A program made the position numbers and the translations under genes. From Methanobacteriota archaeon (GTDB lineage: Archaea; Thermoplasmatota; Thermoplasmata; SG8-5; JAGLSY01): a stretch of 64,000 bases of DNA. Below are positions 1,096-50,433 of this stretch, in pieces. The stretch lies in contig JAEHCQ010000004.1 of the NCBI GenBank assembly GCA_020696385.1, forward strand, positions 96,001 through 160,000, written 5' to 3'. The notes beneath the pieces were generated by a model. The model was not told the origin of the DNA. It made no database searches and worked only from the letters and a program-made list of their open reading frames with translations. Within the stretch, counting starts at the first letter, position 1; every line of letters begins with the position of its first letter.

Positions 1096-1599
1096 TTGAC
1101 AGAAGTCGAGATAGTGGAGGCAATATTGTTCTCTTCCGGTAAGCCGATGACGATCCCTGATATTGCTAGAGCCGGCGACCTGGATGCTGATAAGATACGT
1201 TCTGCTCTCAAAAAGCTCTCCAGATCATACAAGAATCGCAATACCAGTCTTGAAATTGCCAAGATAGGTTCGAAATATGTTCTACAGCTTAGAGAGGAAT
1301 ATAAGAAATCTACCGAAACTGTCGCACAAAGAGAGCTCCCTCATGAAGTGATAAAAACAGCCGCCCTCATAGCCTATTACCAGCCAATGAAGAAGAAGGA
1401 TCTGGTGGAAATGATAGGCAGGCCAGCCAATCCTCATGTGGACGAGCTCAAGAAGCACAGGCTGATAACCGCCGAGCGCGGTGCCCAGGGAAACATCATG
1501 CTGAATACCACGCCCAAGTTCTTCGAATTCTTTGGATTGGAGATGACGAAGCCAGAAGAGCTGAAACAGATGCTGATGAAAAAAGCAGGATTAAAATAA
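1096..1599 (+). CDS. scpB: SMC-Scp complex subunit ScpB
   Basis: VEAILFSSGKP, TAALIAYYQP, TTPKFFEFFGL; TTG start after a GGTG SD-like sequence. Confidence 0.93.
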   Translation: MTEVEIVEAILFSSGKPMTIPDIARAGDLDADKIRSALKKLSRSYKNRNTSLEIAKIGSKYVLQLREEYKKSTETVAQRELPHEVIKTAALIAYYQPMKKKDLVEMIGRPANPHVDELKKHRLITAERGAQGNIMLNTTPKFFEFFGLEMTKPEELKQMLMKKAGLK

Positions 1600-1708
1600 T
1601 CAGCTACTTTTATCATACTGATGAAGAAAGCGGGTCTCAAATAAGACCCACTTTAACTTCATGCTGATGAAGAAGGCTGGGCTTAAATAATTGCCCAGCC
1701 ATATTCAT
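1570..1708 (+). repeat. Three tandem variants of the scpB 3' end (xLMKKAGLK*), each followed by its own imperfect inverted complement
   Basis: 30-bp copies at 1570-1599, 1615-1644 and 1661-1690 differ at third codon positions. Confidence 0.9.
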
Positions 1709-1770
1709 TTATTATTAAAGTAATGTCCACAACTATAAATCCTTAAAGACCTTTCTCAGTACCGAAGCAC

Positions 1771-2832
1771 ATGTCTGGTTTTGAAAAGAGTAAGAGAATG
1801 GAATTGCCCCGAGAGGTCGTAGTAGGTCACGATGCCTTAAATGAGGCTCCCGAGGTCTGCAAACATCTTGGTCTTCAAAACTCCGGTATCCTGGTATGTG
1901 ATGAGACTACCAGATCCATTGCGGGAGATAAGGTCAAAGAACTCCTGGAGGATGCTGGTTTTGATATTGATGTGGTCACGATCAAAGCCGCAGATGGTGA
2001 CACTGTGAACACTGTAAGTTCTTTGGCAACAGAAGGAAAGGCTGGCTTCGCTCTTGGAGTTGGTGGCGGCCAGCCAATAGATATTGCCAAATCCGCCTCT
2101 TTCAATATCAAAATACCATTTCTAAGTATTCCGACAGCGGCTTCTCATGATGGTATCGTATCATCCCGAGCCTCGATAACAATGGGCGGCGTTAAGAAGT
2201 CACTTGACGCACATACTCCATTGGGGGTCATCGCTGATACCGGGATCATATCACAATCCCCGCATAGGCTCTTAGCGGCCGGTTGTGGGGACATTATATC
2301 CAATCTCACCGCAGTTAAAGATTGGAAATTGGCTCAGAGGCTGAGAAATGAGGAATACAGTAGCTATGCGGCCACGCTTTCCGAGATGGTTGCCAAGATC
2401 CTAATTGAGAATGCGTCACATATACGACCTGGCCTGGAGGAATCATCCTGGACCGTGGTCAAAGGTCTTGTGTCCTCAGGGGTTTCGATGAGCATTGCTG
2501 GCTCCTCAAGGCCAGCAAGCGGCTCCGAGCACAAATTCTCCCATGCCCTTGACATGATATGTGAAAAACCCGCCCTGCATGGTGAGCAATGCGGGCTGGG
2601 AACGATAATGATGATGTATCTTCACGGCGGTGATTGGGAGAAGATCAAGGAAGCTCTTTGGATAATCGGAGCTCCCACAACCGCCAAGGCCGCTGGCTTA
2701 TCAAATGATGATGTGATAAACGCACTGGTCAAAGCCCATGAGATAAAGCCCGATAGGTACACGATACTGGGCTACAAGGGAATGACCATAGACGCCGCAG
2801 AGAAATTGGCCAAGACCACGATGGTGATATGA
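1771..2832 (+). CDS. egsA: sn-glycerol-1-phosphate dehydrogenase
   Basis: GVGGG..IDIAK, PTAASHDGIVS, SSRPASGSEHKFSHALD, LHGEQCG. Confidence 0.97.
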   Translation: MSGFEKSKRMELPREVVVGHDALNEAPEVCKHLGLQNSGILVCDETTRSIAGDKVKELLEDAGFDIDVVTIKAADGDTVNTVSSLATEGKAGFALGVGGGQPIDIAKSASFNIKIPFLSIPTAASHDGIVSSRASITMGGVKKSLDAHTPLGVIADTGIISQSPHRLLAAGCGDIISNLTAVKDWKLAQRLRNEEYSSYAATLSEMVAKILIENASHIRPGLEESSWTVVKGLVSSGVSMSIAGSSRPASGSEHKFSHALDMICEKPALHGEQCGLGTIMMMYLHGGDWEKIKEALWIIGAPTTAKAAGLSNDDVINALVKAHEIKPDRYTILGYKGMTIDAAEKLAKTTMVI

Positions 2833-3257
2833 TGAGTATGTTGACAGTAGTTGGCGTAAGCCTGGCAAAGAAAGGCACGGAGATCATTTTTCTAGGCCCC
2901 CTATCTGAATGTAAGGTGTGTAAGGTCAAGAATATATGTTTTCATCTTGACAAGGGCAGTCATTACAAGATCGTCGGGGTAAGAGATGTCAAGCATGGAT
3001 GTGAAGTTCATGAAGATGGAGTCAAGGTCGTCGAGATCGAGAAGATACCTTTCAAGGCGGTCATGGACAAGAAGAAGGCCATTGATGGCTCTACCATGGC
3101 CTTTGAGTTACCAAGCTGCATAGAGAGAGGATGCGAGCATTATCTGCTGTGCTATCCACCGGGACTGGCTTCCAAGAATAAGGTTAAGATCCTATCACTG
3201 GATGGCAAGGTGGAGTGCCCTGCAGGCATGGCAAGAGTTAAGGTCACTCTTGAGTGA
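2829..3257 (+). CDS. UPF0179 family protein
   Basis: LTVVG..LAKKG, CxxCxxxxxC and HxCxxH patterns; typical position after egsA. Confidence 0.85.
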   Translation: MMSMLTVVGVSLAKKGTEIIFLGPLSECKVCKVKNICFHLDKGSHYKIVGVRDVKHGCEVHEDGVKVVEIEKIPFKAVMDKKKAIDGSTMAFELPSCIERGCEHYLLCYPPGLASKNKVKILSLDGKVECPAGMARVKVTLE

Positions 3258-3361
3258 CCTATATGATTTCGAGTAGGTGAGGGCGATTTTTCTTTTGGAT
3301 TGGAAACCTTGTTCTTTTGGAGCCCGAGCCAGCACAGAAATCAATAAAAGAAAAGGCTTCC
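3258..3361 (+). mobile_element. Small structured non-coding insert (copy 1) between duplicated UPF0179 3' ends
   Basis: Flanked by 75-bp direct repeats 3183-3257 and 3362-3436 (4 mismatches); homologous to 50203-50380. Confidence 0.7.
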
Positions 3362-3436
3362 GTTAAGACCCTATCACTGGATGGCAAGGTGGAGTGCCCT
3401 GCAGGTATGGCAAGAGTGAAGGTCACTCTTGAGTAA
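3362..3436 (+). repeat. Displaced second copy of the UPF0179 3' end
   Basis: Encodes VKTLSLDGKVECPAGMARVKVTLE* versus VKILSLDGKVECPAGMARVKVTLE* in the gene. Confidence 0.95.
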
Positions 3437-3520
3437 TTAATCAAACCAAACTAGGTCATTTAGAGTTTACATATTCTATACAATGAGCCTGTGGAAATAT
3501 ACCGGTTCTAATAATTTACA

Positions 3521-5470
3521 TTAATCTTTCAATTCAGGAAGATCACGATATAGGTCCACAGCTTCCGGATTCCCAAGAGCGTCCTTGTTCTTCACTTCTT
3601 TGCCATGTATGGCCTTTCTGACCGCCAGTTCCACCTTTTTCCCATTTATCGTGTATGGGATATCGGCGATCTGTATCACCTTGGCCGGCACATGCCTTGG
3701 AGTGGTGCTTGTTCTGATGGTGCCACGTACCTTGGCGATAAGATCATCATCCAGTTCATAGCCCTCCTTCATCTTCAGAAATATGATCACCCTGACATCA
3801 TTGTCCCAGTCTTGTCCAACAACAAGACTGTCCTCTATCTCTGCCATGTTCTCCACAACACGATAAATCTCCGCAGTGCCGATCCTCACACCTCCAGGAT
3901 TGAGGGTCGCATCGGACCTTCCGTACATTATCACTCCGCCTCTTGAGGTCACGACAACATAATCTCCATGATGCCAGATATTCGGATAGGTATTGAAATA
4001 AGCCGCTCTGTATTTCTTATCATCCGGGTCATTCCAGAAATATATCGGCATTGAGGGAAAGGGTTTTCTGCAGACCAATTCGCCCTGTGTGTCGAATACG
4101 GGTTTACCGTCATCATCCAGAGCCGCTATGTCCATACCCAGACCACGGCATTGAAGCTCTCCGGCATATACTGGCAGGATCGGATTTCCAAGGGTGAAAC
4201 ATGATACTATATCGGTTCCTCCAGCGATCGAAGATAGAATAAGATCCTTCTTGATATCCCTGTAAACATATTCAAAGCTCTCGATCGACAATGGTGAGCC
4301 AGTGGATAGCATTGCTCTTACTGAAGGCAATGCTCCCTCCTCCAGTTTGACTCCAGCTCCTTCGATCGATGCAATATATTTGGCACTGGTTCCAAAAACG
4401 GTCATCTCCTTTTCTTTTGCGAATTCGAAAAGCGCATATGGATCTGGATAGAATGGGTTACCATCATAGAGCATGATAGTGGCTCCGACAGCCAATGAAG
4501 ACACCAGCCAGTTCCACATCATCCAGCCGCATGTGGTGTAATAGAATATGTTATCATCCCTGGTCAGGTCAGTGTGGAGAATGAGCTCTTTAAGGTGCTG
4601 GATAAGGGTTCCACCAGCACCATGCACTATACATTTTGGCACTCCTGTTGTTCCCGAGGAGTACATGATGTAAACTGGATGATCGAAGGGAAGCTGTTCG
4701 AATTCAATATCCAGCCCATGTTCCTCGGAGGTGAAATCATCCAGCATTATGGCATTGGACAGTCCGCTGATATCTGGCGACTGCCTTGTGTAGGGGACCA
4801 CGACTATCCTTTCCACTGAAGGAAGCTCGGTAATTATTTCAGAGATCCTCTCAAGCGAGCTGAACTCCTTATCCTTGTAAAGATAGCCATCGGCCGTGAA
4901 GAGAACTTTGGGCTGTATCTGGCCAAAGCGATCCAGCACTCCTTTTATTCCAAAATCCGGGGAGCAGGAAGACCATATCGCGCCGATGCTCGTAGCCGCG
5001 AGCATCGCGATTATCGATTCAGGCATATTGGGCATGAACCCTGCCACTCTATCGCCTACTTGAATTCCCATATCGCGCAAAGCTTTTGCTAGCTTCGCGA
5101 CCTCGTCATACAGCTCGGCATAGGTGATGGTTCTATTTATCCTGGCCTCGCCCTTGAATATTATCGCTGGCTTATCGTCCTTGAATCGAAGTAAGTTCTC
5201 GGCAAAGTTCATTTCAGCGCCTATGAACCATTTGGAGCCAGGCATTATGTCGAGGTTATCGACAACAGTATCGAAATCTTTGGAGTGTTTGATATCTCCA
5301 AAGGACCACATATCTGCCCAGAAATCGGGGATCTCATTGATGGACCAGTTGAATAATTCATCATAATCTTTAAAATTCGTGCCACGCCTTTGATTCACGA
5401 ATTCCATGAACCTGGTCATATTCGCTTTTTTGATATTTTCCTCTGTTGGCTCCCAAAGTGATTTTGCCAT
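3521..5470 (-). CDS. Acetoacetate--CoA ligase
   Basis: YIMYSSGTTGVPKCIVHGAGG, YYTTCGWMMWNWLVS, GRSDATLNPGGVRIGTAEIY, NGKKVELAV. Confidence 0.93.
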   Translation of the reverse strand: MAKSLWEPTEENIKKANMTRFMEFVNQRRGTNFKDYDELFNWSINEIPDFWADMWSFGDIKHSKDFDTVVDNLDIMPGSKWFIGAEMNFAENLLRFKDDKPAIIFKGEARINRTITYAELYDEVAKLAKALRDMGIQVGDRVAGFMPNMPESIIAMLAATSIGAIWSSCSPDFGIKGVLDRFGQIQPKVLFTADGYLYKDKEFSSLERISEIITELPSVERIVVVPYTRQSPDISGLSNAIMLDDFTSEEHGLDIEFEQLPFDHPVYIMYSSGTTGVPKCIVHGAGGTLIQHLKELILHTDLTRDDNIFYYTTCGWMMWNWLVSSLAVGATIMLYDGNPFYPDPYALFEFAKEKEMTVFGTSAKYIASIEGAGVKLEEGALPSVRAMLSTGSPLSIESFEYVYRDIKKDLILSSIAGGTDIVSCFTLGNPILPVYAGELQCRGLGMDIAALDDDGKPVFDTQGELVCRKPFPSMPIYFWNDPDDKKYRAAYFNTYPNIWHHGDYVVVTSRGGVIMYGRSDATLNPGGVRIGTAEIYRVVENMAEIEDSLVVGQDWDNDVRVIIFLKMKEGYELDDDLIAKVRGTIRTSTTPRHVPAKVIQIADIPYTINGKKVELAVRKAIHGKEVKNKDALGNPEAVDLYRDLPELKD

Positions 5471-39859: not shown

Positions 39860-39987
39860 GTCACTTCCCCTCTCGTACTGTGTAGTATATTACATAACTT
39901 GCTTATAAAGTTAACAGTTATTTACAGTAAATACCTGATAGCTAACCTATATTTATGCAATATATTGATACCTTCCAGTGACATTAT

Positions 39988-40023
39988 TTTATGATAATTA
40001 TTTATGATAATTATTTATGATAA
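39988..40023. repeat. 13-bp tandem repeat TTTATGATAATTA (about 2.8 copies)
   Basis: Units at 39988, 40001 and 40014 (partial), upstream of the giant surface-protein gene. Confidence 0.85.
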
Positions 40024-40052: not shown

Positions 40053-40130
40053 TGGTAGCGGGGAGTCGATTTGAACGACTGATCTTCGGGTTATGAGCCC
40101 GACGGGATTTCCTGGCTACCCCACCCCGCT
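40053..40130 (-). tRNA. Initiator tRNA-Met(CAT)
   Basis: A1-U72 pair, GGG/CCC in the anticodon stem, CAT anticodon, encoded CCA. Confidence 0.96.
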
Positions 40131-49101: not shown

Positions 49102-50202
49102 ATGTCAGAAGTTTTCTTTGCCAAAGTGGGCGCCAGTAAGCACAATGAAAGATTACCAAATAAGGTTCGCCAGTTATTTGACAAAGCTGGTTTTAACAAT
49201 TTAATTTCGGAGAAGGACATGGTCGCCCTCAAGCTTCATTTTGGAGAGCCTGGCAATACCACATTTCTCAGGCCACAATTTACCCGTCAGATCGTGGACA
49301 AGGTGAAGGAAAGCGGTGGTAAGCCTTTCCTTACAGATGCAAACACACTATACACTGGCCAGAGATCCAATGCGGTGGATCATCTCAATGCCGCCGCCCT
49401 GCACGGATTCCTGCCAGCGGTTGTCGATGCTCCCATCATCATCGCGGATGGACTGACTGGCCGCGATTTCGTCGAGGTGGATGTGGATCTCAAGCACCTT
49501 AAATCAGTTAAGTTCGGAGCAGCTGCCTATCACGCTGACGTGATAGGAGCGATTTCTCATTTCAAATGCCACGTTGTCGGTGGTATCGGGGGCGCGATAA
49601 AGAACCTGGGTATGGGTTTCGGAAGTCGTGCTGGCAAGCAGCAGATGCATTCGGATACCAAGCCAGTTGTCGATGGCGAGAAGTGCATATCATGCGGTAC
49701 TTGTGCGAAATGGTGTCCGGAGGACGCGATCGATATTCCGGATAAAGCGATCATCAATCAGGACAAGTGCATCGGATGTGGTGAATGCCTTATACAGTGC
49801 CCGACCAAGGCCATCAATGTAAGATGGGATGCCAGCAGCAAGAATATGCAGGAGAAAATGGTCGAGTACACTTACGGAGTGATGAAGAATAAAAAGGACA
49901 AGACATTCTTCTACAATTTCTTACTGGATATCACGCCGGATTGCGACTGCGTGCCCTGGAGTGGGAAGCAGATAGTGCCAGATATCGGAATTATGGCATC
50001 CACAGACCCGATAGCTATCGATCAGGCATCGGCCGATTTTGTTAACCAGCAAACAGCCAATCCTGGATCCAAGATAGAGATTGCGGTAAATCCGGGTGAT
50101 GACAAGATCCACGAAGTTCATAATATCGATTGGGACCTACAGCTCAAATATGGAGAAGAAATAGGTCTGGGTAGTCGAAAATACAAGATAATCGAGATTT
50201 GA
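49102..50202 (+). CDS. DUF362 domain protein with 2x[4Fe-4S] ferredoxin insert
   Basis: KLHFGE.GN, ISHFK.H, GGAIKNLGMG, two CxxCxxCxxxCP motifs, PDCDC, DPIAID. Confidence 0.92.
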   Translation: MSEVFFAKVGASKHNERLPNKVRQLFDKAGFNNLISEKDMVALKLHFGEPGNTTFLRPQFTRQIVDKVKESGGKPFLTDANTLYTGQRSNAVDHLNAAALHGFLPAVVDAPIIIADGLTGRDFVEVDVDLKHLKSVKFGAAAYHADVIGAISHFKCHVVGGIGGAIKNLGMGFGSRAGKQQMHSDTKPVVDGEKCISCGTCAKWCPEDAIDIPDKAIINQDKCIGCGECLIQCPTKAINVRWDASSKNMQEKMVEYTYGVMKNKKDKTFFYNFLLDITPDCDCVPWSGKQIVPDIGIMASTDPIAIDQASADFVNQQTANPGSKIEIAVNPGDDKIHEVHNIDWDLQLKYGEEIGLGSRKYKIIEI

Positions 50203-50380
50203 TGCCAGGGCAATCGGCATTACCGAGCGAGCAGGCTTTGGCGAGTTTCTTTTTAGATGTGCGCTTCACGAAGCGCATGCATCTATTTTATCAAGCACAT
50301 GAACTGGGCTTGATTCGATTTGTCCGTCTTTTTTCTTTGTGAGCCAAAGCCAGCACAGCGAGGTTAAAAGAAAAAAGTGG
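50203..50380 (+). mobile_element. Small structured non-coding insert (copy 2) between duplicated DUF362 3' ends
   Basis: Flanked by 53-bp direct repeats 50150-50202 and 50381-50433 (4 mismatches); homologous to 3258-3361. Confidence 0.7.
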
Positions 50381-50433
50381 ATGGGGAGGAAATAGGTCTG
50401 GGTAGTCGAAAATACAAGATAATCGAGGTATGA
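50381..50433 (+). repeat. Displaced second copy of the DUF362 3' end
   Basis: Encodes GEEIGLGSRKYKIIEV* versus GEEIGLGSRKYKIIEI* in the gene. Confidence 0.95.

What the first reader, a model, noticed from the sequence alone, without database searches (positions are those of the whole stretch)
1570..1708. Three stacked, recoded scpB C-termini, each with its own matching hairpin
Seen: ATGCTGATGAAAAAAGCAGGATTAAAATAA, ATACTGATGAAGAAAGCGGGTCTCAAATAA and ATGCTGATGAAGAAGGCTGGGCTTAAATAA all encode xLMKKAGLK* with different codons. Each is followed by an imperfect reverse complement of that particular variant (GATTA/TAATC; GGGTCT/AGACCC; GGCTGGGC/GCCCAGCC), so the non-coding arm tracks the silent changes. 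Inference: replication slippage would give identical copies, whereas these look like three independently evolved gene-end+hairpin alleles captured in series. They may be scars of repeated 3'-end replacement like that at 3183 and 50150, or hairpin-type recombination sites. Two C.A mismatches on the top strand become G.T pairs on the bottom strand.
Basis: partly seen in the sequence, partly recalled or inferred. Interest (0 to 1): 0.75.

Follow-up and report, generated by a model that had tools for sequence, protein, structure and literature searches.

The report
Three stacked scpB gene-end hairpins
Behind the chromosome-segregation gene scpB of an uncultured sediment archaeon lie two untranslated, silently re-spelled copies of the gene's last ten codons, each with its own matching hairpin; they look like preserved earlier ends of the gene and are one case of a habit seen at dozens of genes in this genome.

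Summary
Window 1570-1708 carries three tandem units with a 45/46-nt period. Each is the last nine scpB codons plus TAA, followed by an arm that pairs best with its own unit. Six of the 7 variable columns in the 30-nt coding part are third codon positions, and only one change alters a residue.

Only U1 is translated. U3 with its arm aligns with the single scpB end of congener G001. The sister species G002 looks like the same stack minus 73 nt, so the stack predates that species split. What G002 kept is 13% diverged, against 39-44% at four-fold sites.

The locus is not unique. About 2-3% of genes in this genome have their 3' end duplicated just downstream. Some are plain stacks (100% to 75% identity, scpB the most diverged). 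Others bracket an order-wide structured repeat, as at 3184 and 50150.

Best reading (about 0.5): serial local duplication left a time series of former gene ends, kept as hairpins. Reads could not be checked.

This scan has noted related cassettes behind tRNA genes of this genome, and duplicated gene ends in other genomes.

The parts
1096..1599 (+). scpB coding sequence (167 aa); only its last 30 nt (U1) belong to the repeat
   Evidence: ORF; Pfam SMC_ScpB E 9e-32
1570..1599 (+). U1: working gene end, MLMKKAGLK*, all variable third positions are A
1600..1617 (+). S1: arm complementary to U1; weakest hairpin (-11.4 kcal/mol); its last bases overlap the start of U2
   Evidence: (I3)
1615..1644 (+). 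U2: untranslated copy, ILMKKAGLK*; in frame with U1 across a 15-nt spacer but behind TAA
1645..1663 (+). S2: arm complementary to U2 (-18.4 top strand, -22.5 bottom strand)
   Evidence: (I4)
1661..1690 (+). U3: untranslated copy, MLMKKAGLK*; aligns with the working end of G001 and with the remnant kept in G002
1691..1708 (+). S3: arm complementary to U3; 8 perfect pairs inside a 16-nt, 88% complementary stem (-22.6)
   Evidence: (I1)
1721..1770 (+). Conserved block before egsA (TATA-like ...CTATAAAT...), 52 of 55 columns identical to G002; taken to be the egsA promoter (inferred)
1771..2832 (+). egsA-like gene (glycerol-1-phosphate dehydrogenase family)
   Evidence: ORF; Pfam Fe-ADH_2 E 4.8e-37
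3184..3434 (+). Comparison locus: UPF0179 gene end (3184-3256) and its copy (3362-3434, 3 mismatches in 73) around a 104-nt segment holding one copy of the structured repeat
50150..50433 (+). Comparison locus: end of a 366-aa Fe-S protein gene (50150-50202) and its copy (50381-50433, 4 mismatches in 53) around a 178-nt segment holding a longer copy of the same repeat

Best explanation
The region is a real, old tandem array of one module: the last ten codon positions of scpB, followed by an inverted copy of them, so that the stop codon sits at the tip of a hairpin. U3 with arm S3 is the ancestral end of the gene. Two rounds of local tandem duplication of the whole 45-46-nt module put a fresh copy on the gene side. 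Both junctions are the same, ...TC|AT.... The likely mechanism is slippage, or unequal recombination at the palindrome. Each round turned the former working end into an untranslated fossil. Silent changes build up in whichever copy is being translated. Its downstream arm follows by compensatory change, or by template switching between the arms. The displaced modules change very little because they still work as hairpins. They may act on the scpB transcript's 3' end or as a barrier in front of the egsA promoter 30-40 nt further on, or as DNA palindromes. Read from right to left, the three units are then a time series of scpB's 3' end. SHOWN: the anatomy, the cognate pairing, the codon-aware differences, the age relative to the G000/G002 split, the reduced divergence of the part shared with G002, and the presence of young identical arrays of this kind elsewhere in the genome. 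INFERRED: the duplication mechanism, the order of events, and any function of the hairpins.
For: (1) U3/S3 aligns with the single scpB end and downstream sequence of G001. G002 aligns as G000 minus 73 nt, running from just behind U1's stop to the 5' half of U3. The stack therefore existed before G000 and G002 split. (2) The part kept in both species (U3 remnant, S3 and the AT-rich stretch) is 41 of 47 identical, i.e. 13% diverged. Four-fold sites of scpA, scpB and egsA are 39-44% diverged. The 8-bp stem is kept in both by a one-pair slide (read). (3) By hand, the working end of G002 differs from U1/U2/U3 at 5/8/9 sites and that of G001 at 8/6/4 sites. U2 carries GGT at codon 7 like G002, which fits an intermediate state. 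(4) All three units share CTG at codon 2 and AAA TAA at the end, unlike the working ends of G001, G002 and G003. (5) Both junctions lie at the same phase. (6) Whole-genome TRF found 22 arrays of period >=14 that span a stop codon. Of the 21 non-coding arrays scoring >=100, 12 span a stop, 5 are intergenic and 4 span a predicted start. Identities run from 100% (C46:40506, 62 nt x 3.5) down to 75% (scpB). (7) At C22:56328, G000 has four units that degrade with distance from the gene. G001 and G002 have two, and one distal G000 unit matches the distal unit of G001. (8) Template switching is a published way to create hairpin arms and keep them matched (PMC8794818, abstract and introduction read).
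Against: The model needs the untranslated units to have been held about 5-10 times below the neutral rate. With about 0.2-0.3 substitutions per neutral site per lineage since the G002 split, 60 nt of U2 plus U3 should carry about 12-15 changes, most of them non-synonymous. Only one is seen, ATG to ATA. Constraint is shown only for the part of U3/S3 that G002 retains, not for U2/S2. Other diverged stacks in the genome do show non-synonymous decay (C11:80629 3 syn/5 non; C22:198020 1/3), so scpB is unusual among them. The youngest module has the worst hairpin and the oldest the best. No T run of 5 or more follows any hairpin on the + strand, and the terminator scan is at chance level: 1 found, 1.0 expected. 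In 11 long or repeat-bracketed duplications of the same genome, mismatches are 61 synonymous to 18 non-synonymous. This is my hand sum, using single-site classification. Identical pairs, the N-gap pair and paralogue-like pairs with gaps over 250 nt and no element were left out. At C46:100326 the downstream copy has an own branch of about 5 per 100 nt, like a working allele (four-point estimate by hand). That fits allele import better than fossilisation. Only four genomes of the genus exist in the collection, and no reads could be laid.
Confidence: 0.5

Rival explanations
1. Capture in series. U2/S2 and U3/S3, or U1/S1, evolved as working gene end plus hairpin in different lineages of the genus. 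They were brought together by recombination with foreign DNA: homology in scpB on one side and a short or illegitimate join on the other, or unequal recombination between arrays of different lineages.
For: The differences are codon-aware in all three pairs (5:1, 6:0, 4:1), and P is about 1e-5 for six random changes to spare the peptide. Every arm is cognate to its own unit. No constraint on untranslated copies is needed. In the same genome, duplicated ends around the structured repeat differ mostly at silent sites (61:18, hand sum). At C46:100326 they form a mosaic: 11 differences in the first 100 nt, none in the next 65. There the downstream copy branches before the G000/G002 split and has a coding-like branch length.
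Against: The units share G000-lineage states (CTG at codon 2, AAA TAA). Both junctions have the same phase. G002 shows that U1 and U3 were already neighbours before the species split, so the copies are old whatever their origin. No sampled lineage uses U2. No donor, mobile element or recombinase lies at the locus.
Confidence: 0.27
2. Footprints of repeated insertion and loss of small elements. These could be the structured CCAGCACAG...AAAAGAAAA repeat, or integrase-type elements that carry a surrogate gene end (tandem accretion reduced to bare att copies).
For: In 14 of the 55 ORFs with a duplicated end, the repeat's motif lies between the two copies. In one search, many of the 55 motif-bearing sites have long flanking direct repeats of 17-154 nt. 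A similar-looking sequence lies about 80 nt behind scpB in G003 on the other strand (resemblance judged by eye). A fragment of the repeat follows the UPF0179 stop in G001. Earlier notes of this scan describe cassettes stacked behind tRNA genes of this genome.
Against: No repeat sequence lies between the scpB units. The 15-16-nt spacers are fully accounted for as hairpin arms. Loss of an element by recombination between its flanking repeats leaves one copy, not a stack. The three to four tyrosine recombinase genes are on other contigs.
Confidence: 0.1
3. Neutral minisatellite: an ordinary slippage product with no function, whose silent-looking differences and matched arms are chance plus template switching.
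For: Tandem arrays across stop codons are tolerated because the first unit keeps the reading frame whole. Many exist in this genome.
Against: The pattern is codon-aware with P about 1e-5 to 1e-3 per pair, still small after allowing for about 20 arrays. Divergence against G002 is 13% where about 41% is neutral.
Confidence: 0.08
4. Assembly artefact: three strain variants of one gene end strung together in a scaffolded short-read bin.
For: The genome has 50 contigs with N gaps. One other duplicated end (C33:249685, 75 identical nt on either side of an N run) is such an artefact.
Against: The two junctions are new sequences that no single-unit strain would supply. The units differ every 3-6 nt, so they share no long words. 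An independent genome, G002, carries a structure derivable from this one by a single deletion.
Confidence: 0.04

Closest known systems
Tandem accretion of integrative elements and CIMEs at the 3' end of a target gene (streptococcal ICE/IME/CIME; review PMC5704250, passages read)
   Same: Successive copies of one gene's 3' end lie in series. The upstream copy is the working end and the downstream copies are displaced ones.
   Different: Nothing lies between the copies here except a 15-16-nt hairpin arm. There is no integrase at the locus and no conserved core inside otherwise different att sites. The unit has a fixed period like a tandem repeat.
Template-switch mutations that create hairpins and keep their arms matched (Monttinen and Loytynoja 2022, PMC8794818; abstract and introduction read)
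   Same: This is a replication-based way for one arm to be rewritten from the other. It would make the non-coding arm follow silent changes in the coding arm.
   Different: That work concerns RNA genes. It does not describe gene ends, stop-codon-centred hairpins or tandem stacking.
Mobile endonuclease ORFs of fungal mitochondria that bring a re-spelled C-terminal coding copy and leave the old one downstream
   Same: A surrogate, synonymously different gene end replaces the resident one, which stays behind as an untranslated copy.
   Different: No ORF or endonuclease is present. Three copies sit directly stacked. The genome is archaeal.
Integron attC sites (imperfect hairpins recombined as a folded bottom strand)
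   Same: An imperfect hairpin directly behind a stop codon, with structure conserved more than sequence.
   Different: There are no R cores, no cassettes, no integrase on the contig and no consistent strand preference.
REP/BIME-type extragenic palindromes at gene ends
   Same: Hairpins clustered behind a gene, possibly acting on RNA ends.
   Different: These palindromes are made from the gene's own last codons and are unique in the genome. They are not a dispersed family.

Membership tests
Tandem repeat (minisatellite) overlapping a gene end | Head-to-tail units of constant period | tested here: met
   Period 45/46, 2.7-3 copies, TRF score 121
Tandem repeat (minisatellite) overlapping a gene end | Units drift at random positions | tested here: not met
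   6 of 7 variable columns are third codon positions; one residue change
Integrase-mediated tandem accretion / CIME | Element DNA (cargo or remnant) between att copies | tested here: not met
   Spacers of 15 and 16 nt are the hairpin arms only
Integrase-mediated tandem accretion / CIME | Site-specific recombinase at or near the locus | tested here: not met
   PF00589 matches only on contigs C47 and C1; none on C44, which holds the window. The genome is 94% complete.
Integron attC | R'' RYYYAAC and R' GTTRRRY cores flanking the imperfect palindrome | tested here: not met
   No match on either strand in 1560-1730
Diversity-generating retroelement (VR/TR pair) | Mismatches only at template adenines | tested here: not met
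   Columns 3 and 22 break the rule, and U1 is 16 of 30 A anyway (A count by hand)
Diversity-generating retroelement (VR/TR pair) | Reverse transcriptase gene in the genome | tested here: not met
   RVT_1 (PF00078): no match in G000, while the search found it in 3 control genomes
Hammerhead ribozyme (the units contain CUGAUGA) | Match to an Rfam hammerhead model | tested here: not met
   cmscan of 1400-3600 at E up to 10 lists four sub-threshold hits, none a ribozyme
Intrinsic or archaeal oligo-T terminator | Hairpin followed by a T run, or a run of 5 or more T | tested here: inconclusive
   1 terminator-like site (U2) against 1.0 expected. The longest + strand T run is 4, at 1608. Archaeal signals are not modelled by the tool.
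CRISPR array | Near-identical repeats with unique spacers of 25 nt or more | tested here: not met
   Repeats are 75-84% alike and spacers are 15-16 nt, complementary to the repeats
The order-wide structured repeat (CCAGCACAG...AAAAGAAAA family) | Conserved left and right end motifs | tested here: not met
   No motif hit between 1570 and 1708; hits in the window lie at 3326 and 50347

The most novel reading that the evidence does not exclude
The scpB stack is the cargo-less extreme of a lineage-wide way of replacing gene 3' ends. In this order of sediment Thermoplasmata, tiny protein-free modules travel between lineages joined to a surrogate copy of a gene's last codons. The modules are a hairpin made from the gene end itself, or the 75-200-nt pseudoknot-like repeat. 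They integrate through that short homology, displacing the resident end downstream. Stacks would then record successive imports. That would be a homology-targeted, enzyme-less (or host-enzyme-driven) class of mobile DNA in archaea.
Probability: 0.2. Interest if true: 0.8.

Novelty: new variant of a known kind. Interest (0 to 1): 0.55.

Why it matters
If the time-series reading is right, the locus preserves three successive states of one gene end, each with its co-evolving hairpin, on one DNA molecule. That is a rare natural record of how silent substitutions and compensatory arm changes proceed. It would also show that untranslated copies of coding sequence can be kept for their structure. If the capture reading is right, it points to short-homology exchange of gene ends between archaeal species. 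Either way the locus belongs to a genome-wide pattern. In one search, 55 of about 1,700 ORFs scored at or above the threshold, against 2 in the control. That pattern affects gene calling (false C-terminal variants and spurious small ORFs), and repeats of this kind may also complicate assembly.

Tried and rejected
- Reads: the look-up of sequencing runs listed no run for window 1200-2100, so none was listed and read laying was not used.
- Metagenome scan with ScpB: one locus, cut at residue 129, with no gene end.
- Rfam: only four tRNAs at gathering level in the window. Nothing meaningful at E up to 10 in 1400-3600.
- DGR, attC, hammerhead and CRISPR readings failed their defining features.
- Palindrome as a recurring operator: the exact U2 and U3 palindromes occur once each in the genome.
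- Link between duplications and stop-centred hairpins: perfect stems of 9 or more centred on the stop occur at 31 of 1,696 genes, against 6 of 1,704 and 6 of 1,701 in-gene controls. Only 3 genes have both a stem of 8 or more and a duplicated end (Fisher p 0.42). Imperfect stems such as scpB's are missed by that test.
- Strand bias of folding: none overall.
- Idea that c1 at C3:938 was imported from a G002-like donor: its 97% identity lies within the 80-98% range of 60-nt windows along the gene, so this is not shown.
- Reading frame through the structured repeat into the downstream copy: the frame differs between two loci checked by hand, so the repeat is not a coding leader.
- Paper searches (listings and abstracts only) returned nothing on stacked, re-spelled gene ends with cognate hairpins in archaea. 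This is not a claim that none is in print.
The same table was then computed from stored files.

Full report
WHAT IS THERE

The window lies on contig C44 of a 2.28-Mb genome in 50 contigs, 94% complete. Earlier notes of this scan call the organism an uncultured marine-sediment Thermoplasmata archaeon; I did not check the taxon. Genes around the finding are scpA (114-1094), scpB (1096-1599), an egsA-like Fe-ADH_2 gene (1771-2832) and a UPF0179 gene (2829-3257).

The last 30 nt of scpB (U1, 1570-1599) recur at 1615-1644 (U2) and 1661-1690 (U3), with start-to-start spacing of 45 and 46 nt. Each is followed by 15-18 nt that pair back onto it. About 16 nt of coding sequence and the stop codon end up in a hairpin, with the stop at or beside the loop. 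The region folds at -55 kcal/mol (z -7.2) on the top strand and -55.4 on the bottom strand. Unit by unit there is no consistent strand preference.

IS IT MORE THAN CHANCE

The three coding parts read MLMKKAGLK*, ILMKKAGLK* and MLMKKAGLK*. Seven columns vary. Six are third codon positions and one is a synonymous Leu first position. By pairs, the differences fall 5:1, 6:0 and 4:1 in synonymous versus non-synonymous codon pairs. Six random substitutions spare the peptide and stop with P about 1e-5, and leave at most one changed codon with P about 1e-3.

Joining each coding end to each arm in a script shows that every coding end folds best with its own arm: -11.6, -18.4 and -21.2 kcal/mol, against -3.8 to -14.0 for swapped pairs. 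The one near-tie is U3 with arm 1 at -12.7.

RELATIVES

ScpB was found in 37 of 41 related genomes. I read the gene end and 220 nt downstream in 30 loci. Only the genus is informative.

- G001 has one end, spelled most like U3. By hand count it differs from U3/U2/U1 at 4/6/8 sites, and it stops one codon early. Its downstream sequence aligns with S3 and the stretch behind it.
- G003 has one end, 6 differences from U2 and 6 from U3. It is followed by an inserted gene and a sequence resembling the structured repeat on the other strand.
- G002, the sister species (94% ScpB identity), has a working end nearest U1 (5 differences). This is followed at once by the 3' half of U3 with a complete S3 hairpin. 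In the alignment it is G000 minus 73 nt.

The simplest reading is a deletion between short repeats in a stacked ancestor. U1 and U3 were then already neighbours before the two species split.

Four-fold sites of scpA, scpB and egsA differ by 39-44% between these two genomes. The 47 aligned columns of U3 remnant, S3 and the AT-rich stretch differ at 6 positions, or 13%. The 8-bp stem is kept by losing an outer pair and gaining an inner one (read). That part of the stack is under constraint.

THE LOCUS IS ONE OF MANY

I called 1,704 ORFs of 100 aa or more (89.5% of the genome) and aligned the last 180 nt of each to the 600 nt downstream. At score 28 or above, 55 ORFs have a copy, against 2 in a control with the target reversed. 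At score 32 or above the counts are 43 against 0. One pair (C33:249685) flanks an N run and is a scaffolding artefact.

There are two kinds of duplicated end.

(a) Plain stacks with gaps of 0-64 nt, several with three to five units:
- Examples are C22:56328, C22:198020, C46:40019, C47:13796, C44:26831, C2:9771 and C48:71223.
- Some have a stop-centred hairpin in each unit.
- Whole-genome TRF finds 230 arrays of period 14 or more: 150 inside ORFs, 51 intergenic, 22 across a stop codon, 6 across a predicted start and 1 with N.
- Among the 21 non-coding arrays scoring 100 or more, 12 span a stop.
- Their identities run from 100% to 75%, with scpB the most diverged.

(b) Duplications of 17-178 nt around a structured repeat of about 75-200 nt:
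- The repeat has conserved ends and two helices that co-vary between copies in a pseudoknot-like order (helices read by eye, not modelled).
- Its motif lies between the copies in 14 of the 55 ORFs.
- The repeat's right-end motif occurs in 19 of 21 other genomes of the order and in 2 of 19 genomes of other orders of the class. G000 has 23 hits.
- Rfam has no match.

WHAT THE OTHER LOCI SAY ABOUT MECHANISM

Three observations fit birth in place on the gene side and decay distally.
- At C11:175496, three species carry the same two-copy structure. Within each species the two copies resemble each other more than they resemble their orthologues.
- At C22:56328, G000 has four units that degrade with distance from the gene. 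G001 and G002 have two, and a distal G000 unit matches G001's distal unit.
- Arrays occur at every identity from 100% down to 75%.

The long, repeat-bracketed duplications point the other way.
- In 11 pairs, mismatches are 61 synonymous to 18 non-synonymous. This is a hand sum with single-site classification. I left out identical pairs, the N-gap pair and paralogue-like pairs with gaps over 250 nt and no element.
- In 15 short-gap stacks the sum is 28 to 19, with scpB scored 4/2 by that rule.
- At C46:100326 the two copies are a mosaic: 11 differences in 100 nt, then none in 65.
- A hand four-point estimate gives the downstream copy an own branch of about 5 per 100 nt, like a working allele. 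It leaves the tree before the G000/G002 split.
- So import or exchange of alleles between lineages also happens at such structures.
- My first idea that the upstream copy at C3:938 was imported did not hold. Its 97% identity to G002 is within the gene's range.

MOST LIKELY ACCOUNT OF THE scpB STACK (about 0.5)

U3/S3 is the old end. Two local duplications of the whole module, with the same junction phase, put new working ends in front of it before the G000/G002 split. Silent changes arose in whichever copy was translated, and its arm followed. Displaced modules stayed nearly unchanged because the hairpins are still used.

The shared G000-lineage states (CTG at codon 2; AAA TAA) and U2's intermediate spelling fit this account. 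U2 has GGT at codon 7, as in G002.

What the hairpins do is inferred. They sit between the scpB stop and a block that is 52 of 55 identical to G002 and contains a TATA-like motif about 30 nt before the egsA start. An RNA 3'-end structure or a read-through barrier is the obvious candidate. However, no oligo-T run of 5 follows them, and the bacterial-type terminator scan is at chance. Template switching between arms is a published route to matched arms.

WEAKNESSES AND RIVALS

The account needs strong constraint on U2 and U3. This is shown only for the part G002 retains. Other old stacks do decay at replacement sites. The oldest hairpin is the best and the youngest the worst.

- Capture from other lineages (about 0.27) explains the codon-aware pattern and the cognate arms without any constraint, and it has support from the long duplications. 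It does not explain the shared states and equal junctions, and no lineage using U2 was found.
- Footprints of element insertion or integrase accretion (about 0.1) lack any element sequence between the units and any recombinase on the contig.
- A neutral minisatellite (about 0.08) is contradicted.
- An assembly artefact (about 0.04) is unlikely given the novel junctions and G002. It could not be tested with reads.

COMPARISON WITH KNOWN SYSTEMS

The arrangement works like tandem accretion at a gene's 3' end, and like the surrogate C-termini of mitochondrial mobile ORFs (recalled, not read here). It fails their defining features: there is no cargo, no recombinase or endonuclease, and the period is fixed. 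It also fails the tests for attC, DGR, hammerhead and CRISPR.

I file it as a new variant of a known kind: a tandem repeat across a stop codon whose units are conserved, codon-aware gene-end hairpins. My three paper searches returned nothing closer (listings and abstracts only).

Earlier notes of this scan describe cassettes stacked behind tRNA genes of this same genome, and duplicated, synonymously diverged gene ends in CPR, DPANN and Bacteroidota genomes. Those notes gave me the CIME and mobile-ORF comparisons. I did not test their claims.

Noticed in passing
window 3258-3361 and 50203-50380; at least 30 further copies in G000 (e.g. C46:100242, C3:2428-2504, C33:252823): A family of 75-200-nt protein-free repeats. 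The left end is conserved (CGAGCGAGCAGGC) and so is the right end (GCCAGCACAGCGAGG..AAAAGAAAA + GGCTTCCG or AAGTGG). Two helices co-vary between copies and subfamilies in a pseudoknot-like order, and longer copies hold nested extra hairpin modules. Most copies are flanked by direct duplications of the target of 17-178 nt, often a gene's 3' end, with imperfect homology between the repeat's right end and the gene at the junction. There is no Rfam match. The motif was found in 19 of 21 other genomes of the order and 2 of 19 outside it.
   Followed up: partly
G000 genome-wide: 55 of about 1,700 ORFs have their last codons duplicated within 600 nt downstream, against 2 in the control. 22 tandem arrays of period 14 or more span a stop codon, and several have 3-5 units.
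   Followed up: partly
G000 C46:40506-40723: A 62-nt unit (gene end plus hairpins) repeated 3.5 times at 100% identity, starting in the last 11 codons of a 173-aa ORF. It is a young example of the same kind of stack.
   Followed up: no
G000 C33:249685 gene end; C46:8311-8396: Identical 75-nt gene-end copies on either side of an N run look like an unmerged scaffold overlap. A second stack runs into an N stretch.
   Followed up: no
L006, L007, L009, L011, L012, L014 (same-order genus g5), 20-200 nt behind scpB: G+C-rich palindromes of the type GCCCCGCC...GGGCGGGG recur behind scpB in six genomes of another genus. They are a different repeat family at the same kind of place.
   Followed up: no
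L004 655-830 (G003): Behind scpB, G003 has an inserted ORF instead of the direct scpB-egsA junction. On the other strand it has a short sequence resembling the structured repeat's two ends.
   Followed up: partly
L054 (G002 C22), behind the orthologue of G000 C33:199954: G002 carries the same gene-end duplication with a repeat copy after each of the two ends. That insertion is therefore shared or recurrent in the genus. The differences between the untranslated copies of the two species are again mostly silent (4 of 5, by hand).
   Followed up: partly
window 39983-40023: A 13-nt unit repeated 3.1 times at 96% identity, about 30 nt from a tRNA gene on the minus strand (40056-40130).
   Followed up: no
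window 2829-3257 vs L058 (G002): The UPF0179 protein of G002 is only 74% identical to that of G000, and its C-terminal part is very different, while the flanking egsA is 95.5% identical.
   Followed up: no
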